A stretch of DNA of 64,000 nt from positions 66,231-130,230 of the forward strand of contig JAFMEV010000001.1 of assembly GCA_017856545.1 (NCBI GenBank), written 5' to 3'. Below the pieces are notes generated by a model. The model was not told where the DNA came from. It did no database searches and saw only the letters and a program-made list of their open reading frames with translations. Positions 40,448 through 58,045 of the stretch are shown in pieces (the stretch's first letter is position 1; each line of letters opens with the position of its first letter). The stretch comes from Chitinophagaceae bacterium (GTDB taxonomy: Bacteria; Bacteroidota; Bacteroidia; Chitinophagales; Chitinophagaceae). The position numbers and the translations under genes are program-made.

Positions 40448-40450
40448 ATT

Positions 40451-41411: not shown

Positions 41412-41419
41412 TAAATTTG
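41412..41419 (+). promoter_or_regulatory. his operon -7 promoter element TAAATTTG
   Basis: Exact TAnnTTTG match 4 nt before the leader ATG. Confidence 0.75.
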
Positions 41420-41423
41420 CGCC

Positions 41424-41474
41424 ATGAACTTAAACAAACATATCCATCATCATCATTTGCTATCCAAAAGGTAA
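41424..41474 (+). CDS. hisL: his operon leader peptide MNLNKHIHHHHLLSKR
   Basis: ATG...CAT ATC CAT CAT CAT CAT...TAA (5 His, 4 consecutive) directly upstream of a terminator and hisG; too short for the ORF track. Confidence 0.9.
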   Translation: MNLNKHIHHHHLLSKR

Positions 41475-41540
41475 GCTGGGATGTAGGTATGTATATACTA
41501 TATTTAACCAAAGGGCTTACTAACTAGTAAGCCCTTTTAA
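41470..41540 (+). promoter_or_regulatory. his transcriptional attenuator (antiterminator plus terminator)
   Basis: Terminator stem aaagggcttacta / tagtaagcccttt (41510-41537, 13 bp); competing helix ggtaagct (41470-41477) with ggcttact (41514-41521). Confidence 0.85.
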
Positions 41541-41557
41541 TTTATAATGAAACGAAC

Positions 41558-42412
41558 ATGAAACTAAAATTAGCTATTCAAAAATCCGGAAGATTGCAAG
41601 AAGACTCTATGAGACTTTTGAAGGAATGTGGTATTGATATAGGTGCTGGTGTAAATAAGCTAAAAGCAGAAGCAAACAATTTTCCAGTGGAGTTGTTTTT
41701 TTTAAGAGATGATGATATTCCTCAATATGTAGAAGATGGGGTTGCTGATATTGGATTTGTGGGAGAGAATGTTGTGTTTGAAAAAAATAAAAAAGTAGAC
41801 ATTGCCTATGCTTTAGGATTTGGAAAATGCAGATTAAGTTTTGCGGTAAGAAAAGATGAAAATTATACCGGTGCTTCTTTTTTACAAGGCAAAAAAATTG
41901 CAACAAGTTATCCTGTTATTGTACAGAACTACTTGGATAATAATAATGTTAAAGCAGAGATACATGAAATTAGCGGGAGTGTCGAAATTGCTCCAGGTAT
42001 TGGACTAGCAGATGTGGTTTGTGATTTAGTAAGTAGTGGCTCTACCTTATTTATGAACGGGTTAAAAGAAGTGGAAACTATTTTACAATCTCAGGCTGTC
42101 TTGATAAAAAGAAAAGAGTTAAGTGTTGAGGCAAAATTAATATTAGAAAGTTTATTGTTTAGAATTGAATCAGTTAAAAAGGCTAATAAAAATAAATATG
42201 TGTTATTGAATGCTCCTAATGATCAATTGCCTAAAATTATTTCTTTATTACCTGGTATGAAAAGTCCAACTGTATTGCCTTTAGCATCACCTGGATGGAG
42301 TAGTGTTCACAGTGTCATTGCAGAAAGTGATTTTTGGGAAATCATAGAGCAATTAAAAGCAGCAGGAGCTGAAGGTATTTTAGTTATTCCTATTGAAAAA
42401 ATGATATTATAA
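41558..42412 (+). CDS. hisG: ATP phosphoribosyltransferase, long form
   Basis: AIQKSGRL, LRDDDIP, DIGFVGEN, IATSYP, GSVEIAP, DLVSSGSTL, C-terminal regulatory domain. Confidence 0.97.
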   Translation: MKLKLAIQKSGRLQEDSMRLLKECGIDIGAGVNKLKAEANNFPVELFFLRDDDIPQYVEDGVADIGFVGENVVFEKNKKVDIAYALGFGKCRLSFAVRKDENYTGASFLQGKKIATSYPVIVQNYLDNNNVKAEIHEISGSVEIAPGIGLADVVCDLVSSGSTLFMNGLKEVETILQSQAVLIKRKELSVEAKLILESLLFRIESVKKANKNKYVLLNAPNDQLPKIISLLPGMKSPTVLPLASPGWSSVHSVIAESDFWEIIEQLKAAGAEGILVIPIEKMIL

Positions 42413-42413
42413 A

Positions 42414-43706
42414 ATGAATCTTGTCATCAATCCGCCGAAGAAAGAATGGTCTGAAATTATACAAAGACCAGTATTTGATGCTAAAAGCTTAATGCCAATG
42501 GTGCAGGAAGTATTGAACGCCATTCAGGAAAAGGGAGATCAGGCGGTTAAGGATTATACGCTTTCTTTTGATCAAGTAAATTTATCGTCTATACAATTAA
42601 ATGAAGATCAAATTAATCAAATAGCTTCTACATTGGACAGTCATGTAAAGAAGGCCATTGAAGTAGCTAAAATTAATATTGAAAAATTTCACCAAACCCA
42701 ATTACAAAAAGTAGAAAAAATTGAAACCATGCCAGGGGTGTGGTGTTGGAGAAAATCTATTGGTATTGAAAAAGTTGGAATGTATATTCCTGGAGGAACT
42801 GCTCCGCTTTTTTCAACAGTTTTAATGTTGGGTATACCAGCTAGCATTGCGGGATGTAAAGAAATTATTTTATGTACTCCGCCGAATAAAGATGGAAAAA
42901 TAGATGCAGCTATTGCTTATGCTGCACAATTAATTGGTATCAAAAATATCTACACCATTGGTGGAGTTCAAGCCATAGGTGCAATGGCTTTTGGTACGGA
43001 ATCCGTTCCTAAAGTATATAAGATTTTTGGACCTGGGAATCAGTATGTAACAGCTGCTAAACAATTGGTTCAACAGTATGGAACTGCTATTGATATGCCT
43101 GCTGGTCCGAGTGAAGTTTGTGTTTGGGCAGATGAAACAGCGATACCTTCTTTTGTTGCTGCGGATTTATTATCTCAAGCAGAACATGGTGCAGATAGTC
43201 AGGTTTTATTAGTAGCTAGTGAAGAAAAAATCGTCGAACAAGTCAAGCAAGCTTTGAATGAACAATTGCTTCTCTTGCCAAGAAAAGATTTTGCAGAAAA
43301 GGCATTGGCTAATTCTAAAGCAATTGTAATACATGAAACTGAACAAGCTTTAGCATTGATCAACGAATATGCGCCAGAACATTTAATTTTATCCATACAG
43401 CAAGCAGAAATGATGGCAGAAAAAGTATGGAATGCAGGATCGGTATTTATTGGCAATTATTCTCCAGAATCAGTAGGAGATTATGCAAGTGGAACCAATC
43501 ATACCTTGCCAACCAATGGGTATGCAAAAGCGTATAGCGGGGTTAGTGTAGATAGCTTTGTGAAAAAAATTACTTTTCAGCAATTAACAGAAAGAGGCTT
43601 AACCAATATCGCTCAAACAGTAATGGATATGGCCAAAGCGGAAAGTTTAGATGCGCATTCAAAAGCAGTTCAAATAAGAGTAGATCATATCAACAATAAC
43701 AAATAA
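42414..43706 (+). CDS. hisD: Histidinol dehydrogenase
   Basis: GMYIPGGTAPLFS, GPGNQYV, DMPAGPSE, DLLSQAEHG, APEHL, GDYASGTNHTLPT. Confidence 0.97.
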   Translation: MNLVINPPKKEWSEIIQRPVFDAKSLMPMVQEVLNAIQEKGDQAVKDYTLSFDQVNLSSIQLNEDQINQIASTLDSHVKKAIEVAKINIEKFHQTQLQKVEKIETMPGVWCWRKSIGIEKVGMYIPGGTAPLFSTVLMLGIPASIAGCKEIILCTPPNKDGKIDAAIAYAAQLIGIKNIYTIGGVQAIGAMAFGTESVPKVYKIFGPGNQYVTAAKQLVQQYGTAIDMPAGPSEVCVWADETAIPSFVAADLLSQAEHGADSQVLLVASEEKIVEQVKQALNEQLLLLPRKDFAEKALANSKAIVIHETEQALALINEYAPEHLILSIQQAEMMAEKVWNAGSVFIGNYSPESVGDYASGTNHTLPTNGYAKAYSGVSVDSFVKKITFQQLTERGLTNIAQTVMDMAKAESLDAHSKAVQIRVDHINNNK

Positions 43707-43712
43707 GTACTT

Positions 43713-44777
43713 ATGGCATTTGATATTTTAAAAGTGGTGAGACCTAATATTGCAAATCTAAAACCATATTCCTCTGCAAAAGATGAATATAGTGGGGAAG
43801 CAAAAATATTGTTGGATGCCAATGAAAATGCATTGGGTTCTCCTTTGACTAAATGGTATAACAGATATCCAGACCCTTATCAAAAGCAAGTAAAGGATAA
43901 AATTTCTTTTATAAAACAGGTTCCGACGAACCAAATTTTTTTAGGAAATGGGAGTGATGAAATTATCTCCTTGTTGTTCACTGCTTTTTGTGAACCTGGG
44001 AAAGATAATATAATTATTTGCCCCCCTACTTATCCAATGTATGAAGTAAATGCAAATATTCATAATATTGAAATTAAGTCAGCACCTTTATTACCCGATT
44101 TTCAATTAAATATTGCACATATTGAACAGTTGGTCAATGCGAACACTAAAATTATATGGATCTGTTCACCCAATAATCCAACGGGCAATTCATTAGATAG
44201 AATTGATATTGAAACTGTGTTAAATCATTTCGATGGTTTAGTAGTGGTTGATGAAGCATATATTAATTTTTCGAAGCAAAAATCTTTTTGTCAATCATTA
44301 ATTGATTATCCTAATCTAGTAGTATTGCAAACCTTGAGTAAGGCATGGGGTTTGGCAGGATTAAGGTTGGGTATGGCTTTTGCTAGCGAAGCAATTGTGG
44401 GGTATTTAAATAAAGTCAAAGCGCCTTATAATATTAATTTACCGGCCCAAGAACTCACATTAAAAGCATTAGAAGAAGTAGGACAAGTAAATGACATGAT
44501 TCAAGAGTTGGTTCAATTAAGGATTGCATTGGCTGGTGTATTTGAAGAAATGCCCATAGTAGAAGTAGTGTATCCTTCAGATACGAATTTCTTACTGATA
44601 AAAATCCCCAATGCGACAAAATTGTATCAATTTCTTCTCACTAAGGGAATTGTGGTAAGGGATCGTTCCATTTTACCTAATTGTGCGGATACTTTGAGGA
44701 TTACCGTGGGTACAGAACAAGAAAATACTGCCTTAGTGGATGCCATGATTGAATGGATGGAACAACAATTAACTTAA
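43713..44777 (+). CDS. hisC: Histidinol-phosphate aminotransferase
   Basis: LDANEN, NRYPDP, GNGSDE, CSPNNPTG, VDEAY, TLSKAWGLAGLRLG. Confidence 0.96.
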   Translation: MAFDILKVVRPNIANLKPYSSAKDEYSGEAKILLDANENALGSPLTKWYNRYPDPYQKQVKDKISFIKQVPTNQIFLGNGSDEIISLLFTAFCEPGKDNIIICPPTYPMYEVNANIHNIEIKSAPLLPDFQLNIAHIEQLVNANTKIIWICSPNNPTGNSLDRIDIETVLNHFDGLVVVDEAYINFSKQKSFCQSLIDYPNLVVLQTLSKAWGLAGLRLGMAFASEAIVGYLNKVKAPYNINLPAQELTLKALEEVGQVNDMIQELVQLRIALAGVFEEMPIVEVVYPSDTNFLLIKIPNATKLYQFLLTKGIVVRDRSILPNCADTLRITVGTEQENTALVDAMIEWMEQQLT

Positions 44778-44809
44778 TTATTTGTTAACTTGCTATATAA
44801 ACATTGAAA

Positions 44810-46057
44810 ATGAAAAAAATACAGAACCTATTTTTATTATCCATCATCATGATGGCTTGTACAGTAAATGCACAAGACAATGCTGGTTTAAGATTGCCAG
44901 CTGGTTTTTCAGCAACTTTATTTGCCAATAATATTGGTAGTTCAAGACATATCAGTATAACAAAATCTGGTATTGTTTTTGCCAAATTAAATGCTCCAAA
45001 CAAAGAAGGTAAAGCCATTATTAGACTAGAAGATGCTAATAAAGATGGTATTGCAGATAAGATAAACGGATGGGGAAATTATGGTGGAACAGGTATTTAT
45101 GTAAGAGATAAAAATTTATATGCAAGTTCTGATCAAGGAATATTCTTGTATCAATTAAATGATCAAGATGAAGTAGTGAATCCAACAACTCCTAAAGTCA
45201 TTGTAAAAGATTTAATTGACAGAAGACAACATTCTTCTAAATCTATTACTTTGGATCCACAAGGAAATATTTATGTGAATATTGGTGCTTATTCTAATGC
45301 TTGTCAAGAAAAAGATAGAATGCCAGGTTCAAAAGGAATGATGCCTTGTCCTATCTTAGATTCTGCGGGTGGTATTTGGAAATTTGATGGACAAAAAGAA
45401 AACCAAGTTTATGGTGACGGGAAGCGTTACGCTACTGGTTTAAGAAATGTAATTGGGTTAGATTGGAATACACAGACCAATAGTTTATTTGTAACGCAAC
45501 ATGGAAGAGATCAATTGAATTCTTTTTATCCTCAATATTATAGTGACAACCAAAATGCTGAATTACCTGCAGAAACAATGTATGAGGTAAAAGAAGGTGA
45601 TGATTGCGGATGGCCTTATGTATATTATGATCCTTATCAAAAGAAAAAAATATTATCTCCAGAATATGGTGGAGATGGTAAAAAAGAAGGCGCTCCAAAT
45701 GCGTTAAATCCAACGATGTCATTTCCTGCGCATATGGCACCAATGTCTTTGTTATTTTATAAAGGAACCCAGTTCCCAGAAAGATATCAACAAGGTGCAT
45801 TTATTGCTTTCCATGGTTCTTGGAACAGAGCGCCATTACCACAAGAAGGTTATTTTGTAGCTTTTGTGCCTTATAAGAATGGTAAACCATCAGGAGAATG
45901 GGAAATTTTTGCAAACGGGTTTGCAGGTACTGAAATTGTCACAAATCCAAGATTAGCGAAAGCAAGACCTTGTGGTTTAGCTGAAGGGCCTGATGGTTCA
46001 TTATATGTGTGTGATGATAACAAGGGTGCCATTTTTAAAATCAGTTTTAATAAATAA
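44810..46057 (+). CDS. Secreted PQQ-dependent sugar/sorbosone dehydrogenase (beta-propeller)
   Basis: Signal peptide; TGLRN, TQHGRDQL, LPAE, GWPY, HMAPM.L.FY, AFHGSWNR.P..GY, RPCGLA.GPDGSLYV.DD; TAACTTGC promoter-like box at 44786-44793. Confidence 0.85.
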   Translation: MKKIQNLFLLSIIMMACTVNAQDNAGLRLPAGFSATLFANNIGSSRHISITKSGIVFAKLNAPNKEGKAIIRLEDANKDGIADKINGWGNYGGTGIYVRDKNLYASSDQGIFLYQLNDQDEVVNPTTPKVIVKDLIDRRQHSSKSITLDPQGNIYVNIGAYSNACQEKDRMPGSKGMMPCPILDSAGGIWKFDGQKENQVYGDGKRYATGLRNVIGLDWNTQTNSLFVTQHGRDQLNSFYPQYYSDNQNAELPAETMYEVKEGDDCGWPYVYYDPYQKKKILSPEYGGDGKKEGAPNALNPTMSFPAHMAPMSLLFYKGTQFPERYQQGAFIAFHGSWNRAPLPQEGYFVAFVPYKNGKPSGEWEIFANGFAGTEIVTNPRLAKARPCGLAEGPDGSLYVCDDNKGAIFKISFNK

Positions 46058-46059
46058 GC

Positions 46060-46455
46060 ATGAAGTATTTGATTCAATGTTGTTTCATTGGTTTATTAAG
46101 CTTTTCTGCACAAAAAGCTACTGCACAAAATATGGCCAATGGTAAAAAAATATATGAAACAAGATGTTTGGTATGCCATCAAGCAGACGGAGGTGGGGTA
46201 CCCAATATGAATGCACCATTAGATGGAGCAAGCAATGTGGTGGGTAATGATATAGCTAGATTGGTCAAAATCATTCGTAATGGATATAATGAAAGAGTTG
46301 CTTTAGATGGGTATTATTATAGCAATGCAATGACGGCTAATCCAGATTTAAAGGATGCAGATATAGCAGACGTATTATCTTATATAAGAAATAGCTGGAC
46401 TAATAAGGCATCTAAAATAACGCTTGCTCAAGTGCAAAAAGTAAAAAAGAAATAA
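46060..46455 (+). CDS. Periplasmic monoheme c-type cytochrome
   Basis: Signal peptide ATA-Q; CLVCH heme motif; distal Met in NAMTA; ADVLSYIRNSW. Confidence 0.92.
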   Translation: MKYLIQCCFIGLLSFSAQKATAQNMANGKKIYETRCLVCHQADGGGVPNMNAPLDGASNVVGNDIARLVKIIRNGYNERVALDGYYYSNAMTANPDLKDADIADVLSYIRNSWTNKASKITLAQVQKVKKK

Positions 46456-47585
46456 TGAGACCCATACTTTTTATTGATAGAGATGGCGTGATTTTAGAAG
46501 AACCCAAAGCGGATTTTCAAATTGATCATATTGATAAAACAGTATTTGTTAAAGGGGCTATTTCTACCTTGAAACAAATTGCGGAAGAGTTTGGTTTTTA
46601 CAAAGTAATGGTTACCAATCAGGATGGTTTAGGAACTGATGCTTTTCCTTTTTCCGATTTTGAACCTTATCAATCTTTAATGATAAGAACACTTGCGGGA
46701 GAAGGTTTTGTATTTGACGAGGTATTTGTAGATAAAAGTTTTGCAAAAGATAATCAACCAACAAGAAAGCCTGGTACTGGTATGTTGACTGCTTTATTGA
46801 ACAATGAGTCTTTTGATTTGGCTAACTCATATGTGATTGGCGATAGATGGTCAGATATAGCACTGGCAAAAAATATTGGTTGTAAAGCCATTTATTTAAA
46901 ATCTCCCTTACACCAATTAACGGCTGAGCAGGAATTAGCATTGAGACCTTTTATTGCTTTTGAAACAGATCAGTGGAATGCTATTTATAGTTTTCTCAAA
47001 ATAGGCTTGAGAAAAGTATTACATGAAAGGAATACCAAAGAAACCAAAATTCAAATCGAATTGAATTTAGATGGAAATGGGAATGCACAAATACATACAG
47101 GTCTAGGTTTTTTTGATCATATGCTGGAACAAATTGCCAGACATGGTGGATTGGATTTAAGGATACAATGCGATGGTGATTTGCATATTGATGAACATCA
47201 TACTATTGAAGATGTAGGTATTGCTTTAGGTGAAGCATTCGGAAAAGGACTTATAGATAAAAGAGGTATGGAGCGATATGGTTTTGCATTACCCATGGAT
47301 GAAGCAGCGGCTAAAGTATTGATTGATTTTGGAGGTAGAAATTGGTTGGTTTGGGATGCTCATTTCAAAAGAGAAAAAATTGGAGATATGCCAACAGAAA
47401 TGTTTTTTCATTTCTTTAAATCTTTTAGTGATGCCGCTAAGGCCAATGTAAATATCAGTTGTCAAGGTGATAATGAGCATCATAAAATTGAAGCTATTTT
47501 TAAAGCTTTTGCCAAAGCGATTAAAATGGCAGTAAAGCGAAATCCTTATAGCGATGCTTTGCCGAGCACTAAGGGAGTATTATAA
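46455..47585 (+). CDS. hisB: Bifunctional histidinol-phosphatase / imidazoleglycerol-phosphate dehydratase
   Basis: HAD motifs FIDRDG, TNQDG, RKP, GDR; IGPD motifs FFDHML, DEHHTIED, NEHHKIEA; TAATG overlap with the cytochrome gene. Confidence 0.96.
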   Translation: MRPILFIDRDGVILEEPKADFQIDHIDKTVFVKGAISTLKQIAEEFGFYKVMVTNQDGLGTDAFPFSDFEPYQSLMIRTLAGEGFVFDEVFVDKSFAKDNQPTRKPGTGMLTALLNNESFDLANSYVIGDRWSDIALAKNIGCKAIYLKSPLHQLTAEQELALRPFIAFETDQWNAIYSFLKIGLRKVLHERNTKETKIQIELNLDGNGNAQIHTGLGFFDHMLEQIARHGGLDLRIQCDGDLHIDEHHTIEDVGIALGEAFGKGLIDKRGMERYGFALPMDEAAAKVLIDFGGRNWLVWDAHFKREKIGDMPTEMFFHFFKSFSDAAKANVNISCQGDNEHHKIEAIFKAFAKAIKMAVKRNPYSDALPSTKGVL

Positions 47586-47661
47586 TGGCTAAGATTTGGT
47601 AGAATAGGGTGTTTTTTGAAGTATTTTTTCAATTTTTTGGGCATCTAAAGCATAAAATGAG

Positions 47662-47669
47662 TAAATTTG
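47662..47669 (+). promoter_or_regulatory. trp operon -7 promoter element TAAATTTG
   Basis: Exact TAnnTTTG match 7 nt before the leader ATG; TTTG at 47636-47639. Confidence 0.75.
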
Positions 47670-47676
47670 CTCTGCA

Positions 47677-47733
47677 ATGAAAACAATAAACAATTTTTGG
47701 TGGTGGCATACAAACTCCGTTGGGGTATTGTAA
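47677..47733 (+). CDS. trpL: trp operon leader peptide MKTINNFWWWHTNSVGVL
   Basis: ATG...TGG TGG TGG CAT...TAA upstream of a terminator and trpE. Confidence 0.92.
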   Translation: MKTINNFWWWHTNSVGVL

Positions 47734-47797
47734 TGACATAGCCATTATTGTCAACTTATACATAAACCCCGACATATTTGTCGGGGTTTATTTTTTT
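47719..47797 (+). promoter_or_regulatory. trp transcriptional attenuator (antiterminator plus terminator)
   Basis: Terminator ataaaccccgaca-tatt-tgtcggggtttat plus T-tract (47762-47797); competing helix gttggggt (47719-47726) with accccgac (47766-47773). Confidence 0.9.
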
Positions 47798-47817
47798 AAT
47801 GAAGAAATTGGAGCTGA

Positions 47818-49224
47818 ATGCAAAAAAAGATGATACATACGGAAGTGACTCAATTATTGGCAGATACCTATACGCCAGTGGGTATTTATTTGAGATTGAG
47901 AGATCGATTTAGAGATACAATTCTATTGGAAAGTACCGATTCGCATGCTTCTGAGAATAGCTATTCCTTTATTGCAGTGAATGCAATTGGTGGAATAGAA
48001 ATTTCTTCGATGAATGAGATTGAGTATAAATATCCTCAGCAAGCACCAATTAAAGAAAGTATACAAGAAATTCAATCTGCTCCAGATAGATTATGGGCAT
48101 ATATGAAAGAGTATACATTTTCTAGTAGTACCAAAGAAGCTAAATATGCTCAAGGCTTATATGGATATACAGCCTATGATGCAATTCCATTTTTTGATTC
48201 CATTGAATTTAAAGAAGGGTCGCCTATCATTCCCTTAATGCGTTACAGATTATATCAATATGTATTAGCATTTAATCACTTTAAAGATGAGTTGTATATC
48301 TGTGAAAATAAGATGGAGGGTATCGAATCTGAACTAGATGCTTTAGTGGGCTACATTAAAAATAAGGATGTTCCACAATATCCTTTTTCCCTAATTGGTC
48401 AAGAAAGCTCTAATCAAACAGATGATCAATACAGAGAAGCTGTTAAAAAAGGCATTCAGCATTGTATGAGAGGAGATGTTTTTCAGATGGTATTAAGTAG
48501 AAGGTTTCAGCAATCTTTTCAAGGTGACGAGTTTAATGTATACAGATCATTAAGAAATATTAATCCGTCTCCTTATTTATTCTTTTTTGATTATGGTGAT
48601 TATAAATTAATGGGATCTTCTCCTGAAGCACAAATAATTATCAATAATGGGAAAGCCATAGTTCATCCAATCGCAGGTACATTTAAAAGATCTGGAGATG
48701 AGGCATTGGATGCAACAATGACCCAAAAATTATTAGATGATCCTAAAGAAAATGCTGAACATGTGATGCTTGTTGATCTAGCTAGAAATGATTTAAGTAG
48801 AGTTTGTACAAAAGTGAGTGTAAAAGCATATAGACAAGTACATTATTATAGTCATGTGATTCATTTAGTAAGTGAAGTGGTAGGTGATGTTACTGAAGGG
48901 TCAAATCCTTTTCAATTGATTGCAAAAACTTTTCCAGCCGGAACTTTAAGCGGTGCACCAAAATTTAAAGCTATGCAATTAATTGATGCTATTGAACCCA
49001 CCAAGCGATCCTATTATGGGGGTTGTATTGGTTTTGTAGGTTTTGATGGTTCTTGTAATCAAGCAATCATGATTCGTACTTTTTTAAGCAGGCATAATAC
49101 CTTAATCTATCAGGCGGGTGCAGGTGTGGTTGCGGCAAGTGTTCCAGAAAGCGAATTACAAGAAGTCAATAACAAACTGAATGCATTAAAAAACGCAATG
49201 CTTCTTGCAGAAAATATACATTAA
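47818..49224 (+). CDS. trpE: Anthranilate synthase component I
   Basis: ADTYTPV, ILLES, GDVFQMVLS, NPSPY, GSSPE, PIAGT, KENAEHVMLVDLARND, FPAGTLSGAPK, QAGAGVV. Confidence 0.96.
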   Translation: MQKKMIHTEVTQLLADTYTPVGIYLRLRDRFRDTILLESTDSHASENSYSFIAVNAIGGIEISSMNEIEYKYPQQAPIKESIQEIQSAPDRLWAYMKEYTFSSSTKEAKYAQGLYGYTAYDAIPFFDSIEFKEGSPIIPLMRYRLYQYVLAFNHFKDELYICENKMEGIESELDALVGYIKNKDVPQYPFSLIGQESSNQTDDQYREAVKKGIQHCMRGDVFQMVLSRRFQQSFQGDEFNVYRSLRNINPSPYLFFFDYGDYKLMGSSPEAQIIINNGKAIVHPIAGTFKRSGDEALDATMTQKLLDDPKENAEHVMLVDLARNDLSRVCTKVSVKAYRQVHYYSHVIHLVSEVVGDVTEGSNPFQLIAKTFPAGTLSGAPKFKAMQLIDAIEPTKRSYYGGCIGFVGFDGSCNQAIMIRTFLSRHNTLIYQAGAGVVAASVPESELQEVNNKLNALKNAMLLAENIH

Positions 49225-49245
49225 TCAACATTGAATTTATAAATA

Positions 49246-49812
49246 ATGAAAATATTAGTTTTTGATAATTATGATTCCTTTACTTACAATTTGGTGCAAA
49301 TGATCAATGAGTTGACTACTGCATCGGTTGATGTGTATCGAAATGATGAAATAGCATTAGAAAAGGTGAAACTATATGATAAAATATTGCTTTCTCCCGG
49401 TCCAGGTGTTCCTTCTGAATCAGGTTTATTATTGCCCATCATTAAAGAGTATGCAGCTACAAAATCAATTTTTGGAGTTTGTTTAGGACAACAAGCCATT
49501 GCTGAATCTTTTGGAGGAAGTTTAAGCAACTTAAGTAAAGTGTATCATGGTATTGCCACAGATGTTCAATTAACGAATCCATCAACTTTATTTGAAGGAT
49601 TACCAACTACTTTTAAAGTGGGTAGGTACCATAGTTGGGTAGTGAATGAACATGACTTACCTAAAGATTTAATCATTACATCAAAAGATGAAGATGGATA
49701 TATTATGTCTTTAGAGCATACTCGTTTTGATGTAAAAGGAGTTCAATATCATCCGGAAAGTGTTTTGACGCCAGAAGGGTCGCAGATTATTTCCAATTGG
49801 TTAAAAAATTAG
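49246..49812 (+). CDS. trpG: Anthranilate synthase component II (glutamine amidotransferase)
   Basis: DNYDSFTYNL, LSPGPG, GVCLGQQ, GRYHSW, GVQYHPES. Confidence 0.96.
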   Translation: MKILVFDNYDSFTYNLVQMINELTTASVDVYRNDEIALEKVKLYDKILLSPGPGVPSESGLLLPIIKEYAATKSIFGVCLGQQAIAESFGGSLSNLSKVYHGIATDVQLTNPSTLFEGLPTTFKVGRYHSWVVNEHDLPKDLIITSKDEDGYIMSLEHTRFDVKGVQYHPESVLTPEGSQIISNWLKN

Positions 49813-49830
49813 TAGTAGAAAATATAATAG

Positions 49831-50823
49831 ATGAAAAAAATATTACAATATTTATTTGAGCATAAGACGCTAAGTCAAGAAGAAGCAAGGAATGTGTTGA
49901 TACAGATTTCAGAAGGCAAATATTCAGAGCATGAAGTAACTTCTTTTGTTACCGTTTTCTTAATGCGAAGTATCACTATACAAGAATTATTGGGCTTTAG
50001 AGATGCTTTGCTTTCTTTAGCTGTGAAAGTGCATCTTGGAGTGGATGATGCTATTGATATTGTTGGAACGGGTGGCGACGGAAAAGATACTTTTAATATT
50101 TCCACATTAGCCTGTTTTATTGTCGCAGGTACCGGACAAAAAGTAATTAAGCATGGTAATTATGGTGCATCTAGTGTAAGTGGTGCGTCTAATGTGATGG
50201 AAAAAATGGGGTATCAATTTAAAAACGAAGAAGCTGTTTTAACTCAAGAACTAAAAGAAGCGGGTATTTGTTTTTTACATGCTCCCTTATTCCATCCGGC
50301 ATTAAAAGCAGTTGGTCCAATGAGAAGAAACATGGGAGTAAGAACTTTTTTTAATATGCTAGGCCCAATTGTGAATCCAGCTCAACCTAAATACCAATTG
50401 ATTGGCGTCTATAATGTTGAAATGGCTAGAATATATAATTATGTATTACAAAGTTTGAATAAAGACTTTACTTTAATTCATAGTTTGGATGGGTATGATG
50501 AGATTTCTTTGACTGCAGATACAAAAGTGGTGACCAATAAAGGAGAGTTTATTAAATCTCCCATAGAATTAGCAAATTTAAATGTCCGTCAAGAAGATTT
50601 ACATGGGGGAGACACGGTGGATGCGGCAGCAGCTATATTTAAAAATATATTAGAGGGTAAAGGAACCAAATCGCAAAATGCGGTGGTATTAGCCAATGCT
50701 GCTATGGCATTAATGGTGACTGGTAAGTATCAACAATATCAGGATGCATTTGATGCTGCTTCTACAAGTTTGACATCAGGTGCAGCCAATACATGTTTAC
50801 AAAAACTAATTAACCTGCAATGA
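49831..50823 (+). CDS. trpD: Anthranilate phosphoribosyltransferase
   Basis: DIVGTGGDG..TFNIST, KHGN, RTFFNMLGP..NP, DGYDEIS. Confidence 0.96.
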   Translation: MKKILQYLFEHKTLSQEEARNVLIQISEGKYSEHEVTSFVTVFLMRSITIQELLGFRDALLSLAVKVHLGVDDAIDIVGTGGDGKDTFNISTLACFIVAGTGQKVIKHGNYGASSVSGASNVMEKMGYQFKNEEAVLTQELKEAGICFLHAPLFHPALKAVGPMRRNMGVRTFFNMLGPIVNPAQPKYQLIGVYNVEMARIYNYVLQSLNKDFTLIHSLDGYDEISLTADTKVVTNKGEFIKSPIELANLNVRQEDLHGGDTVDAAAAIFKNILEGKGTKSQNAVVLANAAMALMVTGKYQQYQDAFDAASTSLTSGAANTCLQKLINLQ

Positions 50824-51602
50824 GTAACAATATATTAAATACGATTATTCAACATAAACTAGTCGAAGTAGCAGCTAGAAAAAAAGAGGTTTCTTTTGCT
50901 CAATTGGAAGCTATGCCAAGGTTTGAACAGAAGCTAGTCTCTTTAAAAGCATCTATTCAACAAGTAGATAAAAAAGGGATCATTGCAGAATTCAAAAGAC
51001 AATCTCCAAGTAAAGGAATCATCAATGCTCAAGCAGATGTAGAAACGGTAACTACTGCTTACGAACAATTTGGTGCCTCTGGAATTTCGGTATTAACTGA
51101 TCAGTCTTTTTTTGGAGGAAGCTTAGCTGATTTAAGTATTGCTGTTGAAAGAACCATTCCAGTATTAAGAAAAGAATTTATGGTGGATGAGTTTCAAATA
51201 GTAGAGGCCAAAGCATATGGTGCATCTGCCATTTTATTGATCGCCGCTTGTTTAACAGCTGAGCAAACCAAAGTATTTGCTACGCAGGCAAAATCATTGG
51301 GATTAGAAGTTTTATTGGAATTGCATGACGCATCAGAATTGGATCATATTTGTGACGAAGTAGATCTAGTGGGTATTAATAATAGAAGCTTGAAATCTTT
51401 TGAGGTCAATATTGAACATAGTCTTCAATTGAAAGCTCGATTACCAAAAGAGAAGTTGAGTATTGCAGAAAGTGGTATTTATGATGTAGAGACATTTAGA
51501 CTGTTAAAAAAAGAAGGTTTCGATGGATTTTTAATGGGAGAATATTTTATGAAACAAGCCAATCCTGCAGCAGCTTTTGAGGCATTTACTCAATTGATTT
51601 AA
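50820..51602 (+). CDS. trpC: Indole-3-glycerol phosphate synthase
   Basis: IAEFKRQSPSKG, SVLTD, LRKEF, VGINNRSL, AESGI, LMGEYFM. Confidence 0.96.
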   Translation: MSNNILNTIIQHKLVEVAARKKEVSFAQLEAMPRFEQKLVSLKASIQQVDKKGIIAEFKRQSPSKGIINAQADVETVTTAYEQFGASGISVLTDQSFFGGSLADLSIAVERTIPVLRKEFMVDEFQIVEAKAYGASAILLIAACLTAEQTKVFATQAKSLGLEVLLELHDASELDHICDEVDLVGINNRSLKSFEVNIEHSLQLKARLPKEKLSIAESGIYDVETFRLLKKEGFDGFLMGEYFMKQANPAAAFEAFTQLI

Positions 51603-51615
51603 TAAAATAAATTGT

Positions 51616-52245
51616 ATGCAAGTTAAAGTGTGTGGAATAACAGATATAAGTCAAGCTAAGGCATTAGATGCCTTGGGGGTGCACTTTATTGGGTTTATTT
51701 TTTATCCATCCTCTAAGCGGTATGTTTTAAACAATTTAAGTTTAACAGATCTTCAAGATTTTAAAACAACAAAAGCAAAAAAAGTGGGCGTGTTTGTGAA
51801 CGAACCGTTGGAATCTTTGTTGAGTATAGTGAAAGCAGCGGATTTGGATATGGTACAATTACATGGAGATGAAGATCTTGCATATTGTACAAAACTGAAG
51901 GGAATCGTATCGGTAGTAAAAGTATTTAGGGTGGGAGCACTCGTTCCTAACATGGATGGCTTTGATCAGGTTACGGATTATTTTTTATTTGATACAGATA
52001 GTCATTTGTATGGAGGTAGTGGCCAGCACTTTAATTGGGAGATCATTAAAAATCACTCAATGGCTAAGCCTTATTTTTTGAGTGGTGGAATTGGTCCAAA
52101 CGATATTAAAGGTTTGGAAGTGATGCTAACTACCAAAGCAGGTAAACAATTATTGGCAGTGGATTTAAATAGCCAATTTGAAATAAGTCCAGGAAATAAA
52201 GATGTAGAAAAAATTAAAACATTTATAGATGCAATTATTCGATAA
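51616..52245 (+). CDS. trpF: Phosphoribosylanthranilate isomerase
   Basis: VKVCGIT, GFIFY..SKR, GVFVN, VQLHGDE, LFDT, GGSG..FNW, LSGGIGP. Confidence 0.95.
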
Positions 52246-53434
52246 AACAGCAGAATACCAAGAACCTAATCAAGAAGGGTACTATGGTGAGTTTGGCGGC
52301 GCATATATTCCAGAAATGTTGTTTGGCAATGTGGAGGAATTAAAGAACCAATATTTGGATATCATGAATGATCCTGATTTTCAAATTGAATTTCATGCAT
52401 TATTAAGGGATTATGTTGGAAGGCCTACACCTTTATTTTATGCAGAAAGATTGAGTAAAGAAATTGGAACTACAGTTTATTTGAAAAGAGAGGATCTATG
52501 TCATACTGGAGCGCATAAAATTAACAATACCATTGGACAAATTTTATTAGCACAGCGTTTAGGAAAGACAAAAATTATTGCGGAAACCGGAGCTGGTCAA
52601 CATGGTGTTGCTACTGCAACAGTTTGTGCTTTAAAAGGCATGGAGTGTGTGGTGTATATGGGCGAAAAAGACATTGAACGCCAGGCGCCCAATGTGGCAA
52701 GAATGAAATTATTGGGTGCTAAAGTAGTTCCTGCAACAAGTGGAAGTAAAACATTGAAAGACGCTACCAATGAAGCCATTCGAGCATGGATCAATGAACC
52801 AGACACAACACATTATATTATTGGCAGTGTTGTAGGGCCACATCCTTATCCAGATATGGTTGCCAAATTTCAAAGTGTGATCAGCGATGAAATTAGAAAA
52901 CAATTAAAAGAGAAGACAGGTGCTGAATTACCTACCCATGTGGTGGCTTGTGTGGGTGGAGGCAGTAATGCCGCAGGTGCTTTTTATCATTTTTTAAATG
53001 AACCAACAGTGGATTTAGTTGCAGTGGAAGCTGCAGGTCATGGGGTTTATTCAGGCATGAGTGCTGCTACTACGCAATTAGGTACAACAGGTATTTTGCA
53101 TGGAAGTAAAAGTATTTTAATGCAAACCAAGGATGGACAAGTAGTAGAACCACATAGTATTAGTGCTGGATTGGATTATCCAGGTATTGGTCCTTTACAT
53201 GCTTATTTATTTAAAAGTGGGAGAGGAACTTTTACAAGTGCAACAGATGAGGAAGCATTAGAATGGGCATCTCATTTATCTAAAATTGAAGGAATCATTC
53301 CAGCATTAGAAACTGCACACGCATTTGCTATTTTACCAAAAATGAATTTTAAACCTACAGATATAGTAGTTGTTTGTTTGAGTGGAAGAGGAGATAAGGA
53401 TTTGGCTACATATATGTCTAATATTAAAATGTAA
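52229..53434 (+). CDS. trpB: Tryptophan synthase beta chain
   Basis: [55 protein letters not shown]. Confidence 0.98.
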
Positions 53435-53439
53435 AAAAG

Positions 53440-54213
53440 ATGATGTCCAGATTGAAGCATTTATTTGATCAAAAAAGCACAAGGGTGCTGAATGTATATT
53501 GTACTGCAGGTTTCCCACAATTGAATAGTACTTTGGAAGTGATGGAATCTTTGCAAGCCAATGGTGCAGACATTATTGAATTGGGTATGCCTTATAGCGA
53601 TCCATTAGCAGATGGTGAAGTGATTCAATCAAGTAGTTTGGTGGCTTTGGGTAATGGTATGACTATCGAATTATTATTTGAGCAATTAGCATCTATGAGA
53701 AAGTCTATTCATATTCCTGTTATTTTAATGGGGTATATGAATCCTATATTACAATATGGTTTTGAGCGTTTTTGTAAAGCTGCAAAGGAAGTTGGTGTGG
53801 ATGGATTAATCTTGCCTGATTTACCTTTATTTGAATTTGAAACAATTTATGGCAGCGCTATTCAAGCAAATGGTTTAGATTTTATTTTTCTGGTAACTCC
53901 CGAAACTTCAGAAGAGCGTTTGAAAAAATTAGATAGTTTAAGTTCAGGTTTTTTATATGCAGTTAGTTCATCTGCTACAACAGGAAAGGATAAAGATTTT
54001 TCAAAAGTTGCCATGTATTTAAAGCGACTTAAAGCTTTTGGATTAAAAAATCCATTTTTAGTTGGATTTGGTATCAAAGACAAAGAAAGTTTTAATGCTG
54101 TGAATGAATACGCTAATGGTGCTATTATAGGGTCTGCATATATTAAAGCTCTATCGTCTGGATCTGATGTGAATGCTATTACCAAAACATTTTTGGAATC
54201 TATTTTAAAATAA
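53440..54213 (+). CDS. trpA: Tryptophan synthase alpha chain
   Basis: IELGMPYSDPLADG.VIQ, LMGYMNP, DGLILPDLP, VGFGI, GAIIGSA. Confidence 0.97.
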   Translation: MMSRLKHLFDQKSTRVLNVYCTAGFPQLNSTLEVMESLQANGADIIELGMPYSDPLADGEVIQSSSLVALGNGMTIELLFEQLASMRKSIHIPVILMGYMNPILQYGFERFCKAAKEVGVDGLILPDLPLFEFETIYGSAIQANGLDFIFLVTPETSEERLKKLDSLSSGFLYAVSSSATTGKDKDFSKVAMYLKRLKAFGLKNPFLVGFGIKDKESFNAVNEYANGAIIGSAYIKALSSGSDVNAITKTFLESILK

Positions 54214-54216
54214 ACA

Positions 54217-54807
54217 ATGAGTACAGTGATCATTCAATATAACGCAGGTAATATACAATCGGTCTTGTATGCCTTAGAGCGTTTGGGCGTTGCAGCATTG
54301 GTAACAGATGATCCAATTAAAATTAAGACTGCTGATAGGGTTATTTTTCCTGGAGTAGGTGAGGCAAGTACAGCTATGCAGTATTTAAAAGAACGACAAT
54401 TAGATATTTTAATTCAAAATTTAAAACAACCCGTATTAGGTATTTGTTTAGGGATGCAATTAATGTGTACTTATTCAGAAGAAAACAATACCAATTGTTT
54501 GGGCATATTTAATGAGCAAGTAAAACAATTTAGGCCAGAAAATAATTCAATAAAAGTGCCTCAGATGGGTTGGAATACCATTACTCATTTACAAACTCCT
54601 TTATTTAAGGGAGTAGAAGAAAATAGTTATGCTTATTTTGTACATGGCTACTATGCATCCATTGGGGAGCATACTATTGCGCAAACCAATTATATTCTGG
54701 ATTATAGCTCGGCCTTACATAAAGATAATTTTTATGGAGTACAATTTCATCCGGAAAAATCAGCAAAGGCAGGAGAACAAATTATTCAAAACTTTTTATC
54801 CATATAG
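54217..54807 (+). CDS. hisH: Imidazole glycerol phosphate synthase glutaminase subunit
   Basis: GNIQSV, FPGVG, LGICLGMQL, PQMGWN, YFVHGY, GVQFHPEKS. Confidence 0.96.
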   Translation: MSTVIIQYNAGNIQSVLYALERLGVAALVTDDPIKIKTADRVIFPGVGEASTAMQYLKERQLDILIQNLKQPVLGICLGMQLMCTYSEENNTNCLGIFNEQVKQFRPENNSIKVPQMGWNTITHLQTPLFKGVEENSYAYFVHGYYASIGEHTIAQTNYILDYSSALHKDNFYGVQFHPEKSAKAGEQIIQNFLSI

Positions 54808-54809
54808 AG

Positions 54810-55523
54810 ATGCAAATAATACCTGCTATAGATTTGATTGATGGTAAATGTGTAAGATTAACAGAGGGGGATTATGCCCAAAAGAAAATCTACAATGAAG
54901 ATCCATTGGAAGTAGCCAAGGCATTTGAGGGCATTGGATTAATGCGTTTACACCTAGTGGATTTGGACGGTGCGAAAGCAGGTGAAGTGGTGAATTGGAA
55001 GGTTTTAGAAAAAATTGCCCATCAAACCCAATTAAAGATTGATTTCGGTGGGGGTATAAAAAAAGAAACCACATTGAAAACTGTTTTTGATACAGGAGCA
55101 AGCTATGCTACTATAGGAAGTTTGGCAGTAAACAATAGACTTGTATTTGAAGAATGGATTGAACGTTTTGGTGCAGATGCTTTTATGTTGGGAGCAGATG
55201 TTTTTGAAGAAAAAATTGCCATTGGTGGATGGATAGAAAAAACCAATATAGATGTATATGAATTTATTGAATCTTATATGAGTAAAGGGATTGCTCAAGT
55301 TTTTTGTACCGATATTCAAAAAGATGGAAAATTGGCTGGGCCTTCCATTGATTTGTATAAAAAAATCATGGACCAATTTCCAAAGCTACAATTAATAGCA
55401 AGTGGGGGCGTGAGTAATATGGAAGATTTACATACACTTCGAACTATTGGTTGCGCTGGAGCTATTGTGGGGAAAGCTATTTATGAAAACAGAATTACTT
55501 TAAAAGAATTAGCATCATTTTAA
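54810..55523 (+). CDS. hisA: ProFAR isomerase
   Basis: [56 protein letters not shown]. Confidence 0.96.
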
Positions 55524-55527
55524 TACT

Positions 55528-56286
55528 ATGTTAACTAAGAGAATCATACCTTGTTTAGATATTAAAGATGGCAGAACAGTTAAGGGGATCAACTTTGAGC
55601 AAATCAGAGATGCGGGTGATCCAGTGGAATTAGCTGCATTGTATGCACAGCAAGGAGCAGATGAATTGGTATTCTTAGATATTACCGCTACTGTTGAAAG
55701 AAGAAAGACATTAAGCGAATTGGTGAATAAAATTGCCCATAAAATCAATATACCATTTACAGTTGGTGGAGGGATACAAACAGAAGAAGATGTTTCTATA
55801 CTTTTGCAAAATGGTGCTGACAAAATCTCCGTTAATTCAGCAGCATTTAAAAATCCTTCTATCATTCAAAGTTTTGCTACCAACTTCGGAAGTCAATGTG
55901 TGGTATTGGCAATTGATGCAAAATGTGAAGAGGATGGTAGATGGTATGTTTATTTAAATGGAGGAAGAATAAAAACGGATAAATTGGTGGAAGAGTGGGC
56001 TAAAGAAGCGGTGGACTTAGGTGTAGGAGAAATTTTACTCACTAGTATGAATCATGATGGGACCAAACAAGGCTTTGCTTTAGATATAACAGCAAAGTTA
56101 TCTGAAACATTATCCGTACCCATAATTGCTTCAGGGGGTGGAGGCAATGCGCAACATTTTTATGATGTCTTTGCCAAAGGGAAAGCAGATGCAGCATTAG
56201 CGGCAAGTATCTTTCATTATAAGGAAGTAAGTATTCCAGAATTAAAAAATTATTTATATCAACAACAAATTCCAGTAAGACTTTAA
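55528..56286 (+). CDS. hisF: Imidazole glycerol phosphate synthase cyclase subunit
   Basis: [54 protein letters not shown]. Confidence 0.97.
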
Positions 56287-56316
56287 AAATTATACAATCA
56301 TTAATCCTTGATTCAA

Positions 56317-56916
56317 ATGAATATTCAATTTTCAAAATACGCAGATGGCTTGGTGCCTGCCATTATACAAGACAATCAAACCGGTAAAGTATTGATGTTG
56401 GGTTTTATGAACCAAGAGGCAGTTGATGCAACTATGTCTCAACAAAAAGTCACTTTTTTTAGCCGTACTAAAAACAGATTATGGACCAAGGGAGAAGAAA
56501 GCGGACATTATTTAGCATTGGTCAATATGCAATTAGATTGCGATAACGATACTTTATTGATTAAGGCGATTCCAAATGGTCCGGTTTGTCATACAGGTTC
56601 AGATACATGCTGGGGGGAACTGAATTCAAATAGCACGGATTTTTTATCAAAATTAGAAGGGATAATTGCTAGTAGGAAAACAGCTGCACCTGAAAGTTCA
56701 TATGTTGCATCGCTTTTCCAAAAGGGAATTAATAAGATCGCTCAAAAAGTGGGAGAGGAGGCAGTTGAAACTATAATTGAGGCAAAAGATAAGAATAATG
56801 ATTTGTTTGTTGGAGAGGCAGCAGATTTATTGTTCCATTACCTCATCTTGCTTCAGGCAAAAGGGTTTACTTTATCCGATATTACTAAAGAATTGGAGAA
56901 AAGGCATAAAGCATAA
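56317..56916 (+). CDS. hisIE: Bifunctional phosphoribosyl-AMP cyclohydrolase / phosphoribosyl-ATP pyrophosphatase
   Basis: GLVPAIIQD, SRTKNRLWTKGEESG, DCDNDTLL, CHTG...C, KVGEEAVE, ADLLFH. Confidence 0.96.
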   Translation: MNIQFSKYADGLVPAIIQDNQTGKVLMLGFMNQEAVDATMSQQKVTFFSRTKNRLWTKGEESGHYLALVNMQLDCDNDTLLIKAIPNGPVCHTGSDTCWGELNSNSTDFLSKLEGIIASRKTAAPESSYVASLFQKGINKIAQKVGEEAVETIIEAKDKNNDLFVGEAADLLFHYLILLQAKGFTLSDITKELEKRHKA

Positions 56917-56947
56917 TTGCTTATATTTGATCATTCAATATAATAAA

Positions 56948-58027: not shown

Positions 58028-58045
58028 GCTTTTACGCATACACAT

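What the first reader, a model, noticed from the sequence alone, without database searches (positions are those of the whole stretch)
41412..56916. trp operon nested inside the his operon: hisH-A-F-IE placed behind a Trp-sensing attenuator
Seen: the order is hisL-hisG-hisD-hisC-[dehydrogenase-cyt c]-hisB-trpL-trpE-G-D-C-F-B-A-hisH-A-F-IE, all on +. Only 3 nt separate trpA (stop 54213) from hisH (54217), and I found no TAnnTTTG/TTGC box in the last ~216 bp of trpA. No strong terminator follows hisB, but any read-through must still pass the trp attenuator terminator (47762-47797). Established: Trp-leader attenuators terminate transcription when Trp-tRNA is abundant. Inference: the second half of His biosynthesis would be switched off by tryptophan excess unless an unseen promoter or cross-control exists, so this may be a dual-input His/Trp superoperon. 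The trp leader has a His codon immediately after WWW, which could let His starvation also stall the ribosome there and open the terminator.
Basis: partly seen in the sequence, partly recalled or inferred. Interest (0 to 1): 0.8.

Follow-up and report, generated by a model that had tools for sequence, protein, structure and literature searches.

The report
Tryptophan operon nested in histidine operon
In this freshwater Chitinophagaceae bacterium the whole tryptophan operon, with its own tryptophan-sensing switch, sits in the middle of the histidine operon; the gene order was already published, but the switch peptide always carries a histidine codon next to its tryptophan codons, so it may sense both amino acids.

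Summary
The order is hisL-hisGDC-[dehydrogenase-cyt c]-hisB-trpL-trpEGDCFBA-hisHAFIE, all on the + strand. The trpA-hisH gap is 3 nt. Both leader peptides and both terminators are present.

The arrangement is not a one-off. All 78 informative relatives keep trpA-hisH adjacency. It occurs in 40 genera of four Bacteroidia families. Del Duca et al. 2021 (PMC8305728) already reported it for two Chitinophagaceae, without analysing regulation.

Seven freshwater metatranscriptomes all show early his > trp > late his RNA depth. None shows a rise at hisH, while depth jumps 3-11x at the next promoter (tlpA). RNA contigs bridge hisB-trpL, trpL-trpE and trpA-hisH. No conserved internal promoter was found. 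hisHAFIE are therefore most likely the tail of the trp transcript, behind the Trp attenuator.

The dual-sensing idea survives its own refutation test. A His codon lies within -1..+2 of the Trp run in 40/40 nested genera, against 12/47 non-nested. Both CAT and CAC are used, and the flanking codons drift. However, one non-nested family also carries WWWH, the statistics are not corrected for phylogeny, and no experiment exists.

Verdict: known architecture, classical attenuator, and a plausible new hybrid Trp/His variant.

The parts
41412..41419 (+). P_his: Bacteroidota-type -7 box TAAATTTG
41424..41474 (+). hisL leader peptide MNLNKHIHHHHLLSKR with stop (5 His codons, no Trp codon)
   Evidence: sequence read directly
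41510..41543 (+). his attenuator terminator (12-bp stem plus T-rich tail)
   Evidence: fold z = -4.0
41558..44777 (+). hisG, hisD, hisC
   Evidence: TIGR00070, TIGR00069 and TIGR01141, all above their cut-offs
44804..46455 (+). PVC-type haem-binding/propeller protein plus cytochrome c, inserted between hisC and hisB
   Evidence: weak family matches; conserved in relatives
46455..47585 (+). hisB (bifunctional histidinol-phosphatase / IGP dehydratase)
   Evidence: NF003937, 495 bits
47662..47669 (+). P_trpL: -7 box TAAATTTG, with TTTG 22 nt upstream
   Evidence: A TAnnTTTG lies 150-200 nt upstream of trpE in 40 of 51 relatives.
47677..47733 (+). trpL leader peptide MKTINNFWWWHTNSVGVL with stop. 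Trp codons are at 47698-47706 and the His codon CAT at 47707-47709.
   Evidence: conserved in relatives
47707..47735 (+). Attenuator regions 1 (47707-47718) and 2 (47719-47735). The 1:2 hairpin includes the His codon. Region 2 (GUUGGGGU) can instead pair with 47767-47774 as the antiterminator.
   Evidence: Own-versus-swapped duplex energies across relatives are -12.8 against -10.2 kcal/mol.
47762..47798 (+). trp attenuator terminator (13-bp stem, 6 G-C pairs, T7)
   Evidence: A similar terminator is present in 36/40 nested genera.
47818..54213 (+). trpE, trpG, trpD, trpC, trpF, trpB, trpA
54217..56916 (+). hisH, hisA, hisF, hisIE (late his genes), starting 3 nt after the trpA stop
   Evidence: There is a single hisH in the genome.
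56922..56929 (+). Promoter box TATATTTG of the next unit (tlpA-like thiol:disulfide oxidoreductase); marks the end of the composite operon
   Evidence: RNA depth jumps 3-11x here.

Best explanation
This is a conserved composite his-trp operon with two leader-peptide attenuators in series.

P_his and hisL (His codons) control hisGDC-dh-cytc-hisB. No terminator follows hisB, so these transcripts run into trpL. A second promoter lies directly in front of trpL.

trpL is a classical ribosome-mediated attenuator. A ribosome stalled at WWW, or at the codon just after it, covers region 1. Region 2 then pairs with the 5' arm of the terminator.

trpEGDCFBA and hisHAFIE form one transcription unit behind this attenuator. 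Late His enzymes are therefore made only from transcripts that pass the Trp gate.

The His codon or codons flanking the Trp run are probably kept so that uncharged tRNA-His also stalls the ribosome there. That would make trpL an OR gate (Trp or His) serving both pathways.

Status of each step:
- Shown: the anatomy, its conservation, co-transcription contigs, and the RNA depth order.
- Inferred: gating by Trp.
- Hypothesis (about 40%): a functional role for the His codon.
For: Gene identities and signals.

Conservation:
- trpA-hisH adjacency in 78/78 informative Chitinophagaceae loci, and hisB followed by trpE in all 46 loci that reach hisB, with a 177-301 nt gap in 43 of them.
- 32 genera of a 76-genus family sample.
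- Three further families: f13, f38, f67.

The attenuator is conserved. 36/40 nested genera have a terminator 24-49 nt after the leader stop. Antiterminator pairing is better with a leader's own terminator arm than with swapped or shuffled ones: -12.8, -10.2 and -7.3 kcal/mol.

RNA:
- 7/7 metatranscriptomes show early his > trp > late his. The late-his/trp ratio is 0.22-0.80.
- Depth jumps 2.8-11x at the tlpA promoter, which serves as a positive control.
- A run of unknown, DNA-like type shows no early-his > trp > late-his decline.
- Contigs span 47456-47688 (hisB into trpL), 47706-48311 (through the terminator into trpE) and 53985-54427 (trpA into hisH).

No TAnnTTTG lies between trpL and hisA. 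A box in the 3' part of trpA occurs in only 19/78 relatives, mostly at the A-S-F-D codons, and not in this genome.

His codon:
- At +1 in 37/40 nested genera, within -1..+2 in 40/40, and at -1 in 11/40 against 0/47 non-nested.
- Non-nested genera have it at +1 in 12/47 (Fisher 8e-11; within the family 0.004).
- His is the most discriminating residue near the Trp run (p = 6e-13).
- Both CAT (92) and CAC (13) are used, and the downstream codons diverge while His stays.

From my own knowledge: in E. coli trpL, starvation for Arg, whose codon follows WW, also relieves termination (Zurawski et al. 1978).
Against: - No condition-resolved expression data exist. Logan contig depths are coarse, low (1-40x) and come from mixed populations 95-100% identical to the window.
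- A weak, non-consensus promoter inside trpB or trpA cannot be excluded. Depth in hisF/hisIE is slightly higher than in hisH/hisA in some runs, and TAGATTTG (54829) and TACTTTTG (55799) lie inside hisA and hisF.
- A single regulatory codon gives low sensitivity in attenuation models (PMC1183508).
- WWWH also occurs where no his genes follow trpA: f2 4/6, f13 2/3, f33 1/1, and un-nested family members 5/11.
- The association is not corrected for phylogeny. The nested families may share one ancestor.
- trpL starts only 7 nt after its -7 box, so on read-through his transcripts its AUG is internal. Whether it is translated there is unknown.
Confidence: 0.65

Rival explanations
1. The gating is real but the His codon is a passenger. 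hisHAFIE are transcribed with trp, and basal read-through of the Trp attenuator plus P_trpL supplies enough late His enzymes. The His after WWW is inherited lineage sequence with no sensing role.
For: - WWWH occurs in non-nested f2 (4/6) and persists in un-nested family members (5/11).
- The HTNS motif is shared as a block in many genera.
- One codon gives weak sensitivity in models.
- Late his RNA is low but not zero in all seven environmental samples.
Against: - His is more conserved (37/40) than the next three positions (26, 24 and 18 of 40).
- His survives complete divergence of the downstream peptide and is written with both synonymous codons.
- The three nested leaders without His at +1 have it at -1 or +2.
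- His at -1 occurs only in nested leaders (11/40 against 0/47).
- Within the family His drops to 5/11 after un-nesting.
Confidence: 0.35
2. hisHAFIE have their own internal promoter inside trpB or trpA (or hisA/hisF), so the late his genes are expressed independently of Trp. The adjacency would be only physical.
For: - 19/78 relatives carry a TAnnTTTG 120-262 nt upstream of hisH, about twice the background density.
- TAGATTTG at 54829 and TACTTTTG at 55799 lie inside hisA and hisF.
- Depth in hisF/hisIE exceeds that in hisH/hisA in several runs.
Against: - The box is absent from this genome and its closest relatives. Where present it coincides with the conserved A-S-F-D codons, and its spacing to a TTTG is poor.
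- The trpA-hisH gaps are 3-100 nt.
- No RNA depth rise occurs at hisH in any of the 7 runs, whereas the tlpA promoter gives a 3-11x rise.
- An RNA contig bridges the junction.
Confidence: 0.15
3. His-promoter transcripts never contribute to trp or late his expression. They would stop before or at the trp attenuator because trpL is translated only as a near-leaderless mRNA from its own promoter. hisHAFIE would then be under Trp control alone, with His supply balanced by HisG feedback.
For: - The trpL ATG lies 7 nt after its -7 box, and hisL 4 nt after its box.
- An untranslated leader folds into the 1:2 hairpin plus terminator.
Against: - An RNA contig runs from hisB across the intergenic space into trpL.
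- Bacteroidota initiate translation at internal AUGs without Shine-Dalgarno sequences as a rule (my own knowledge).
- The enrichment of His codons in nested leaders would be left unexplained.
Confidence: 0.1

Closest known systems
his operon interrupted by trp genes in Thermoflavifilum thermophilum and Filimonas lacunae (Del Duca et al. 2021, PMC8305728)
   Same: Same family (Chitinophagaceae) and the same insertion of tryptophan genes into the his operon. The short gaps were taken there as a sign of one transcription unit.
   Different: That paper reports gene order only, in two genomes, and states that no expression data exist. It does not describe the internal trpL attenuator, the internal promoter, the His codon, or the spread to other families.
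E. coli / Salmonella trpL leader-peptide attenuator
   Same: A short ORF with tandem Trp codons, a 1:2 hairpin, a 2:3 antiterminator and a 3:4 intrinsic terminator directly before trpE. In E. coli the codon after WW (Arg) also gives relief when its tRNA is uncharged (my own knowledge).
   Different: - No sequence relationship; there is no Rfam Trp_leader hit.
- Three Trp codons instead of two.
- The promoter is of the Bacteroidota type, and the leader is nearly leaderless.
- The attenuator lies inside another operon and also controls four his genes.
- The neighbouring codon is His, the product of those genes.
Multivalent attenuators (E. coli thr leader with Thr and Ile codons; ilvGMEDA leader with Leu, Val and Ile codons)
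   Same: One leader peptide reads the charging of more than one tRNA species and gates one operon.
   Different: In those cases the amino acids belong to one branched pathway and each has several codons. Here the two pathways share only PRPP, and His is represented by one or two codons.
Bacillus subtilis aro supraoperon (aroF-aroB-aroH-trpEDCFBA-hisC-tyrA-aroE)
   Same: A trp operon with its own promoter and attenuator is nested in a larger unit. Upstream transcripts read into it, and genes of other pathways are transcribed behind trpA.
   Different: Regulation there is by the TRAP protein. TRAP is absent from this genome. The flanking genes there belong to the aromatic pathway, not the two halves of the his operon.
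Actinobacterial his-trp gene cluster with PriA (my own knowledge)
   Same: his and trp genes are physically linked.
   Different: There the link goes with a shared bifunctional HisA/TrpF enzyme. Here both hisA and trpF are present.

Membership tests
Ribosome-mediated leader-peptide attenuator (trpL type) | Short ORF with tandem codons for the regulating amino acid, just upstream of the first structural gene | tested here: met
   18-codon ORF with WWW, ending 84 nt before trpE. Found in 52 of 54 relatives' upstream regions.
Ribosome-mediated leader-peptide attenuator (trpL type) | Intrinsic terminator between the leader ORF and the structural gene | tested here: met
   13-bp stem plus T7 at 47762-47798. 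Present in 36/40 nested genera.
Ribosome-mediated leader-peptide attenuator (trpL type) | Mutually exclusive antiterminator (2:3) that forms when region 1 is covered by a stalled ribosome | tested here: met
   With 47677-47717 masked and the RNA cut at 47777, GUUGGGGU pairs with ACCCCGAC. Pairing with a leader's own terminator arm beats swapped or shuffled arms. This is computational only.
Ribosome-mediated leader-peptide attenuator (trpL type) | Read-through responds to charged tRNA-Trp in vivo | not testable with these tools
   Metatranscriptome contigs show both leader-only and read-through RNA, but the conditions are unknown.
Rfam Trp_leader (RF00513) / His_leader (RF00514) | Match to the covariance model at or near the gathering score | tested here: not met
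   cmscan at E <= 1 over 40000-59000 gave only sub-threshold hits to unrelated families. The element works like these leaders but is not a sequence member.
Multivalent (multi-amino-acid) attenuator | Codons for a second amino acid inside the control region, conserved | tested here: met
   The His codon is the first codon of region 1. It is at +1 in 37/40 nested genera and within -1..+2 in 40/40.
Multivalent (multi-amino-acid) attenuator | Starvation for the second amino acid relieves termination | not testable with these tools
   Needs His-starvation experiments with reporter fusions.
Supraoperon with a nested trp operon (B. subtilis aro type) | Read-through from the upstream operon into trp, plus an internal trp promoter | tested here: met
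   No terminator follows hisB. An RNA contig spans 47456-47688. A -7 box lies at 47662. trpE depth exceeds hisB 3' depth in 5/7 runs.
Supraoperon with a nested trp operon (B. subtilis aro type) | TRAP (MtrB) protein-mediated attenuation | tested here: not met
   No PF02081 match in the genome; the B. subtilis control is positive.
his operon interrupted by trp genes (Chitinophagaceae; PMC8305728) | trp biosynthetic genes between hisB and hisH on the same strand with short gaps | tested here: met

The most novel reading that the evidence does not exclude
The internal trpL leader is a natural two-input OR-gate attenuator. One or two His codons placed directly beside the Trp run let shortage of either charged tRNA open the same terminator. 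That solves the regulatory conflict created when the trp operon was inserted between the early and late his genes. The His codons would be maintained by selection only while hisHAFIE stay behind trpA.
Probability: 0.4. Interest if true: 0.7.

Novelty: new variant of a known kind. Interest (0 to 1): 0.55.

Why it matters
Leader-peptide attenuators are textbook single-pathway sensors. Here an operon rearrangement placed half of one pathway behind the sensor of another.

The comparative record covers 40 nested and 47 non-nested genera. It suggests the sensor peptide adapted by recruiting codons of the second amino acid. If confirmed, this would be a clear natural case of regulatory logic being rewired by one or two codons after an operon fusion. 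It would also give a simple design rule for synthetic multi-input attenuators.

The work also shows that the published trp-in-his gene order is widespread. It occurs in four Bacteroidia families, with variants carrying a DAHP synthase or purU between trpA and hisH, and in environmental samples the cluster's RNA looks like one co-transcribed unit.

Tried and rejected
- Rfam scan of 40000-59000 at E <= 1: no Trp or His leader, T-box or riboswitch.
- The sigma-70 consensus scan is uninformative in this AT-rich Bacteroidota genome: 66 sites found against 77 expected.
- Internal hisH promoter: the exact -7 motif is absent here. Where it occurs in relatives it is explained by conserved codons.
- RNA structure as the reason for the His codon: CAU pairs with AUG at the base of the 1:2 helix. 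However, CAC variants and wholly different downstream sequences keep His, so this explanation is weak.
- A simple 'His equals nested' rule is rejected. Family f2 and several un-nested genomes have WWWH.
- RNA-seq for a cultured or complete-genome relative (L138): no RNA run holds it.
- A HisH+HisA+HisF tree to judge independent origins was too poorly resolved to count events. It places the nested families in at least three parts of the tree and f2 beside f13.
- Two classic trp-operon reviews (PMC193870, PMC2387123) are not held.
Its hits were accepted because the own-genome hit fell exactly on trpE, and because later tblastn with the true proteins agreed in the nine 6-20 kb trp-operon and inter-gene regions fetched afterwards. 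The other trpE placements are supported only by a leader-like ORF in the 480-nt stretch upstream.
- Three genome-fetch requests failed for machine reasons and were repeated.
Full report
**1. Observation**

ORF listing and NCBIfam scans confirm the gene order. It is hisG-hisD-hisC, a PVC-type haem/propeller protein, a cytochrome c, hisB, a 232-nt gap, trpE-G-D-C-F-B-A, then hisH-A-F-IE. All genes are on the + strand.

The trpA stop is at 54211-54213 and the hisH ATG is at 54217.

The 5' leader encodes MNLNKHIHHHHLLSKR. Its ATG is at 41424, 4 nt after a Bacteroidota -7 box TAAATTTG. A 12-bp terminator follows it.

The internal gap holds four elements:
- a second TAAATTTG box at 47662-47669;
- the ORF MKTINNFWWWHTNSVGVL at 47677-47733;
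- a 1:2 hairpin;
- a 13-bp terminator with a T7 tail at 47762-47798.

Folding with the ribosome footprint masked shows the alternative antiterminator, GUUGGGGU with ACCCCGAC. The His codon CAU (47707-47709) is the first codon of region 1.

The genome is a 1.87-Mb, 97%-complete MAG with a single hisH. It has no TRAP protein.

**2. Conservation**

A hisH-anchored search returned 80 Chitinophagaceae loci. They are freshwater MAGs plus Sediminibacterium sp. C3, Niastella soli and N. yeongjuensis.
- All 78 loci that reach upstream of hisH have trpA directly in front of it, with gaps of -1 to 102 nt.
- All 46 loci that reach hisB have hisB, a leader-sized gap, then trpE.

In a class-wide sample of 60 genomes:
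- 41 have hisB directly followed by hisH, the usual arrangement;
- 6 are nested, from the own family f1 and from f13, f38 and f67;
- 2 keep only a trpG/pabA gene between hisB and hisH.

In f13 and f38 a DAHP synthase lies between trpA and hisH. In f67 purU does.

A 76-genus sample of the family gave 32 nested genera and about a dozen non-nested ones. Later checks showed what the non-nested ones look like:
- G344 and G368 have a canonical hisGDCB-hisH and a separate trpEGDCFBA followed by tlpA. tlpA is the gene that normally follows hisIE.
- G331 keeps trpA-hisH together while the rest of the trp operon lies 282 kb away.

**3. Literature**

Del Duca et al. [quoted passage not shown] They add that no expression data exist and that the short gaps suggest one transcription unit.

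The gene order is therefore known. I found no paper that treats the internal attenuator or its codon content.

**4. Transcription in nature**

Seven freshwater metatranscriptomes hold near-identical sequence. Mean contig depth falls in the order early his > trp > late his in all seven. The ratios are:

| Comparison | Range across 7 runs |
|---|---|
| late his / early his | 0.10-0.42 |
| late his / trp | 0.22-0.80 |
| tlpA / late his | 2.8-11 |

- The tlpA jump coincides with a consensus -7 box at 56922. It shows that the depth data can detect a promoter.
- No rise occurs at hisH.
- A run of unknown, DNA-like type shows no decline along the cluster.
- RNA contigs bridge hisB to trpL (47456-47688), trpL through the terminator into trpE (47706-48311), and trpA into hisH (53985-54427).

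These are assembler depths at low coverage from mixed populations. They support co-transcription and the absence of a strong hisH promoter, but they do not prove either.

**5. Internal promoter test**

No exact TAnnTTTG lies on the + strand between 47662 and 54829.

Among relatives, 19/78 have such a box 120-262 nt upstream of hisH, about twice the coding background. It falls on the conserved A-S-F-D codons of trpA and is missing from this genome and its nearest relatives.

As a control, a box sits at the expected place before trpL in 40 of 51 relatives.

**6. The attenuator is conserved**

- 36 of 40 nested genera have an intrinsic terminator 24-49 nt after the leader stop.
- The leader's last codons pair with the 5' arm of their own terminator better than with other genomes' arms or with shuffled sequence. 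The energies are -12.8, -10.2 and -7.3 kcal/mol.
- Visible compensatory changes support this, for example CGAGGC/GCCUCG and UAGGGU/ACCCUA.

**7. The His codon**

At the level of one genome per genus:

| Feature | Nested (n = 40, four families) | Non-nested (n = 47) |
|---|---|---|
| His directly after the Trp run (+1) | 37 | 12 |
| His within -1..+2 of the Trp run | 40 | 12 |
| His directly before the Trp run (-1) | 11 | 0 |

The 12 non-nested leaders with His at +1 break down by family as follows:

| Family | His at +1 |
|---|---|
| f1 (own family) | 5/11 |
| f2 | 4/6 |
| f13 | 2/3 |
| f33 | 1/1 |
| 13 other families | 0/26 |

Further points:
- His is the residue that best separates the two groups (p = 6e-13). 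Fisher's test for +1 gives 8e-11 overall and 0.004 within the family. None of these is corrected for phylogeny.
- Both synonymous codons occur (CAT 92, CAC 13).
- His persists where the downstream peptide is unrelated (HGVKLK, HGIKS, HHLRSGE, HSIHS, HTEANQ, HLNSFPGK).
- His (37/40) is more conserved than positions +2 to +4 (26, 24 and 18 of 40).
- In G082, which has lost trpE, a promoter, the leader MNIATTTFHWWHSLCSNCAV and a terminator still stand in front of trpG-hisH.

Against a simple reading:
- In f2 the trp operon is not followed by his genes, yet the leader has WWWH.
- The recently un-nested genomes keep the His codon.
- The his-gene tree could not resolve how many independent origins there are.

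**8. Mechanism**

Shown: two attenuators in series, an internal promoter, no terminator after hisB, and late his genes at the tail of the trp unit.

Inferred from the established attenuation model:
- Excess Trp terminates most transcripts before trpE, and therefore before hisH-IE.
- Under His starvation with Trp replete, P_his transcripts would stop at the trp attenuator unless something opens it.

Physically, a ribosome waiting at the CAU codon covers region 1 just as one waiting at WWW does. From my own knowledge, Arg starvation acts in this way at the Arg codon after WW in E. coli trpL.

Attenuation theory predicts low sensitivity for a single codon, converging with multi-codon designs only under severe limitation (PMC1183508).

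I rate the composite-operon and gating model at about 0.65-0.75. I rate a selected His-sensing role at about 0.4.

**9. Earlier notes of this scan**

Earlier notes describe the same layout in other genomes. One follow-up proposed the same dual-sensing idea from a genome that keeps only trpG. I used these as leads. I re-derived the layout, the remnant case and the leader statistics independently here. They are not independent evidence.

**10. Verdict**

The attenuator is classical in mechanism. The tie between nesting and His codons beside the Trp run is a new, testable variant of multivalent attenuation.

Noticed in passing
window 44804-46455: A PVC-type haem/propeller protein and a cytochrome c sit between hisC and hisB. 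The pair is conserved in nearly all Chitinophagaceae relatives. It is the most deeply covered part of the cluster in several metatranscriptomes (depth about 40 in X25).
   Followed up: partly
window 41412-41426 and 47662-47679: Both leader peptides start 4-7 nt after their -7 boxes, so they are near-leaderless on transcripts from their own promoters. On read-through transcripts from P_his the trpL AUG is internal.
   Followed up: no
L089 10285-11406 (-), L138 10306-11316 (-), L129 8848-9711 (+): In two other Bacteroidia families a type-I-beta DAHP synthase lies between trpA and hisH, giving a his-trp-aro unit. In a third family the gene in that position is purU (formyl-THF deformylase).
   Followed up: partly
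L136 8792-10712 (-); L095: Two genomes keep only a trpG/pabA-like gene between hisB and hisH. G082 has no trpE, yet it retains a promoter box, the leader MNIATTTFHWWHSLCSNCAV and a terminator in front of that gene.
   Followed up: partly
L257, L261 (G344, G368): In these un-nested family members trpEGDCFBA is followed directly by tlpA, the gene that follows hisIE in nested genomes. The his operon is contiguous elsewhere. This suggests that hisHAFIE were relocated. G344 also has two tandem trpF genes.
   Followed up: partly
L255, L256 (G331): trpA-hisH adjacency is kept while trpEGDCF(B) lies 282 kb away on the same contig. The operon is split at trpB/trpA.
   Followed up: no
window 56922-58027: The tlpA-like thiol:disulfide oxidoreductase has its own TATATTTG box 6 nt after the hisIE stop. 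Its RNA depth is 3-11x that of the late his genes. It is conserved downstream of hisIE in most relatives.
   Followed up: partly
window 54829-54836 and 55799-55806: Exact -7-type boxes TAGATTTG and TACTTTTG lie inside hisA and hisF. Depth in hisF/hisIE is slightly higher than in hisH/hisA in some runs, so weak internal starts are possible.
   Followed up: no
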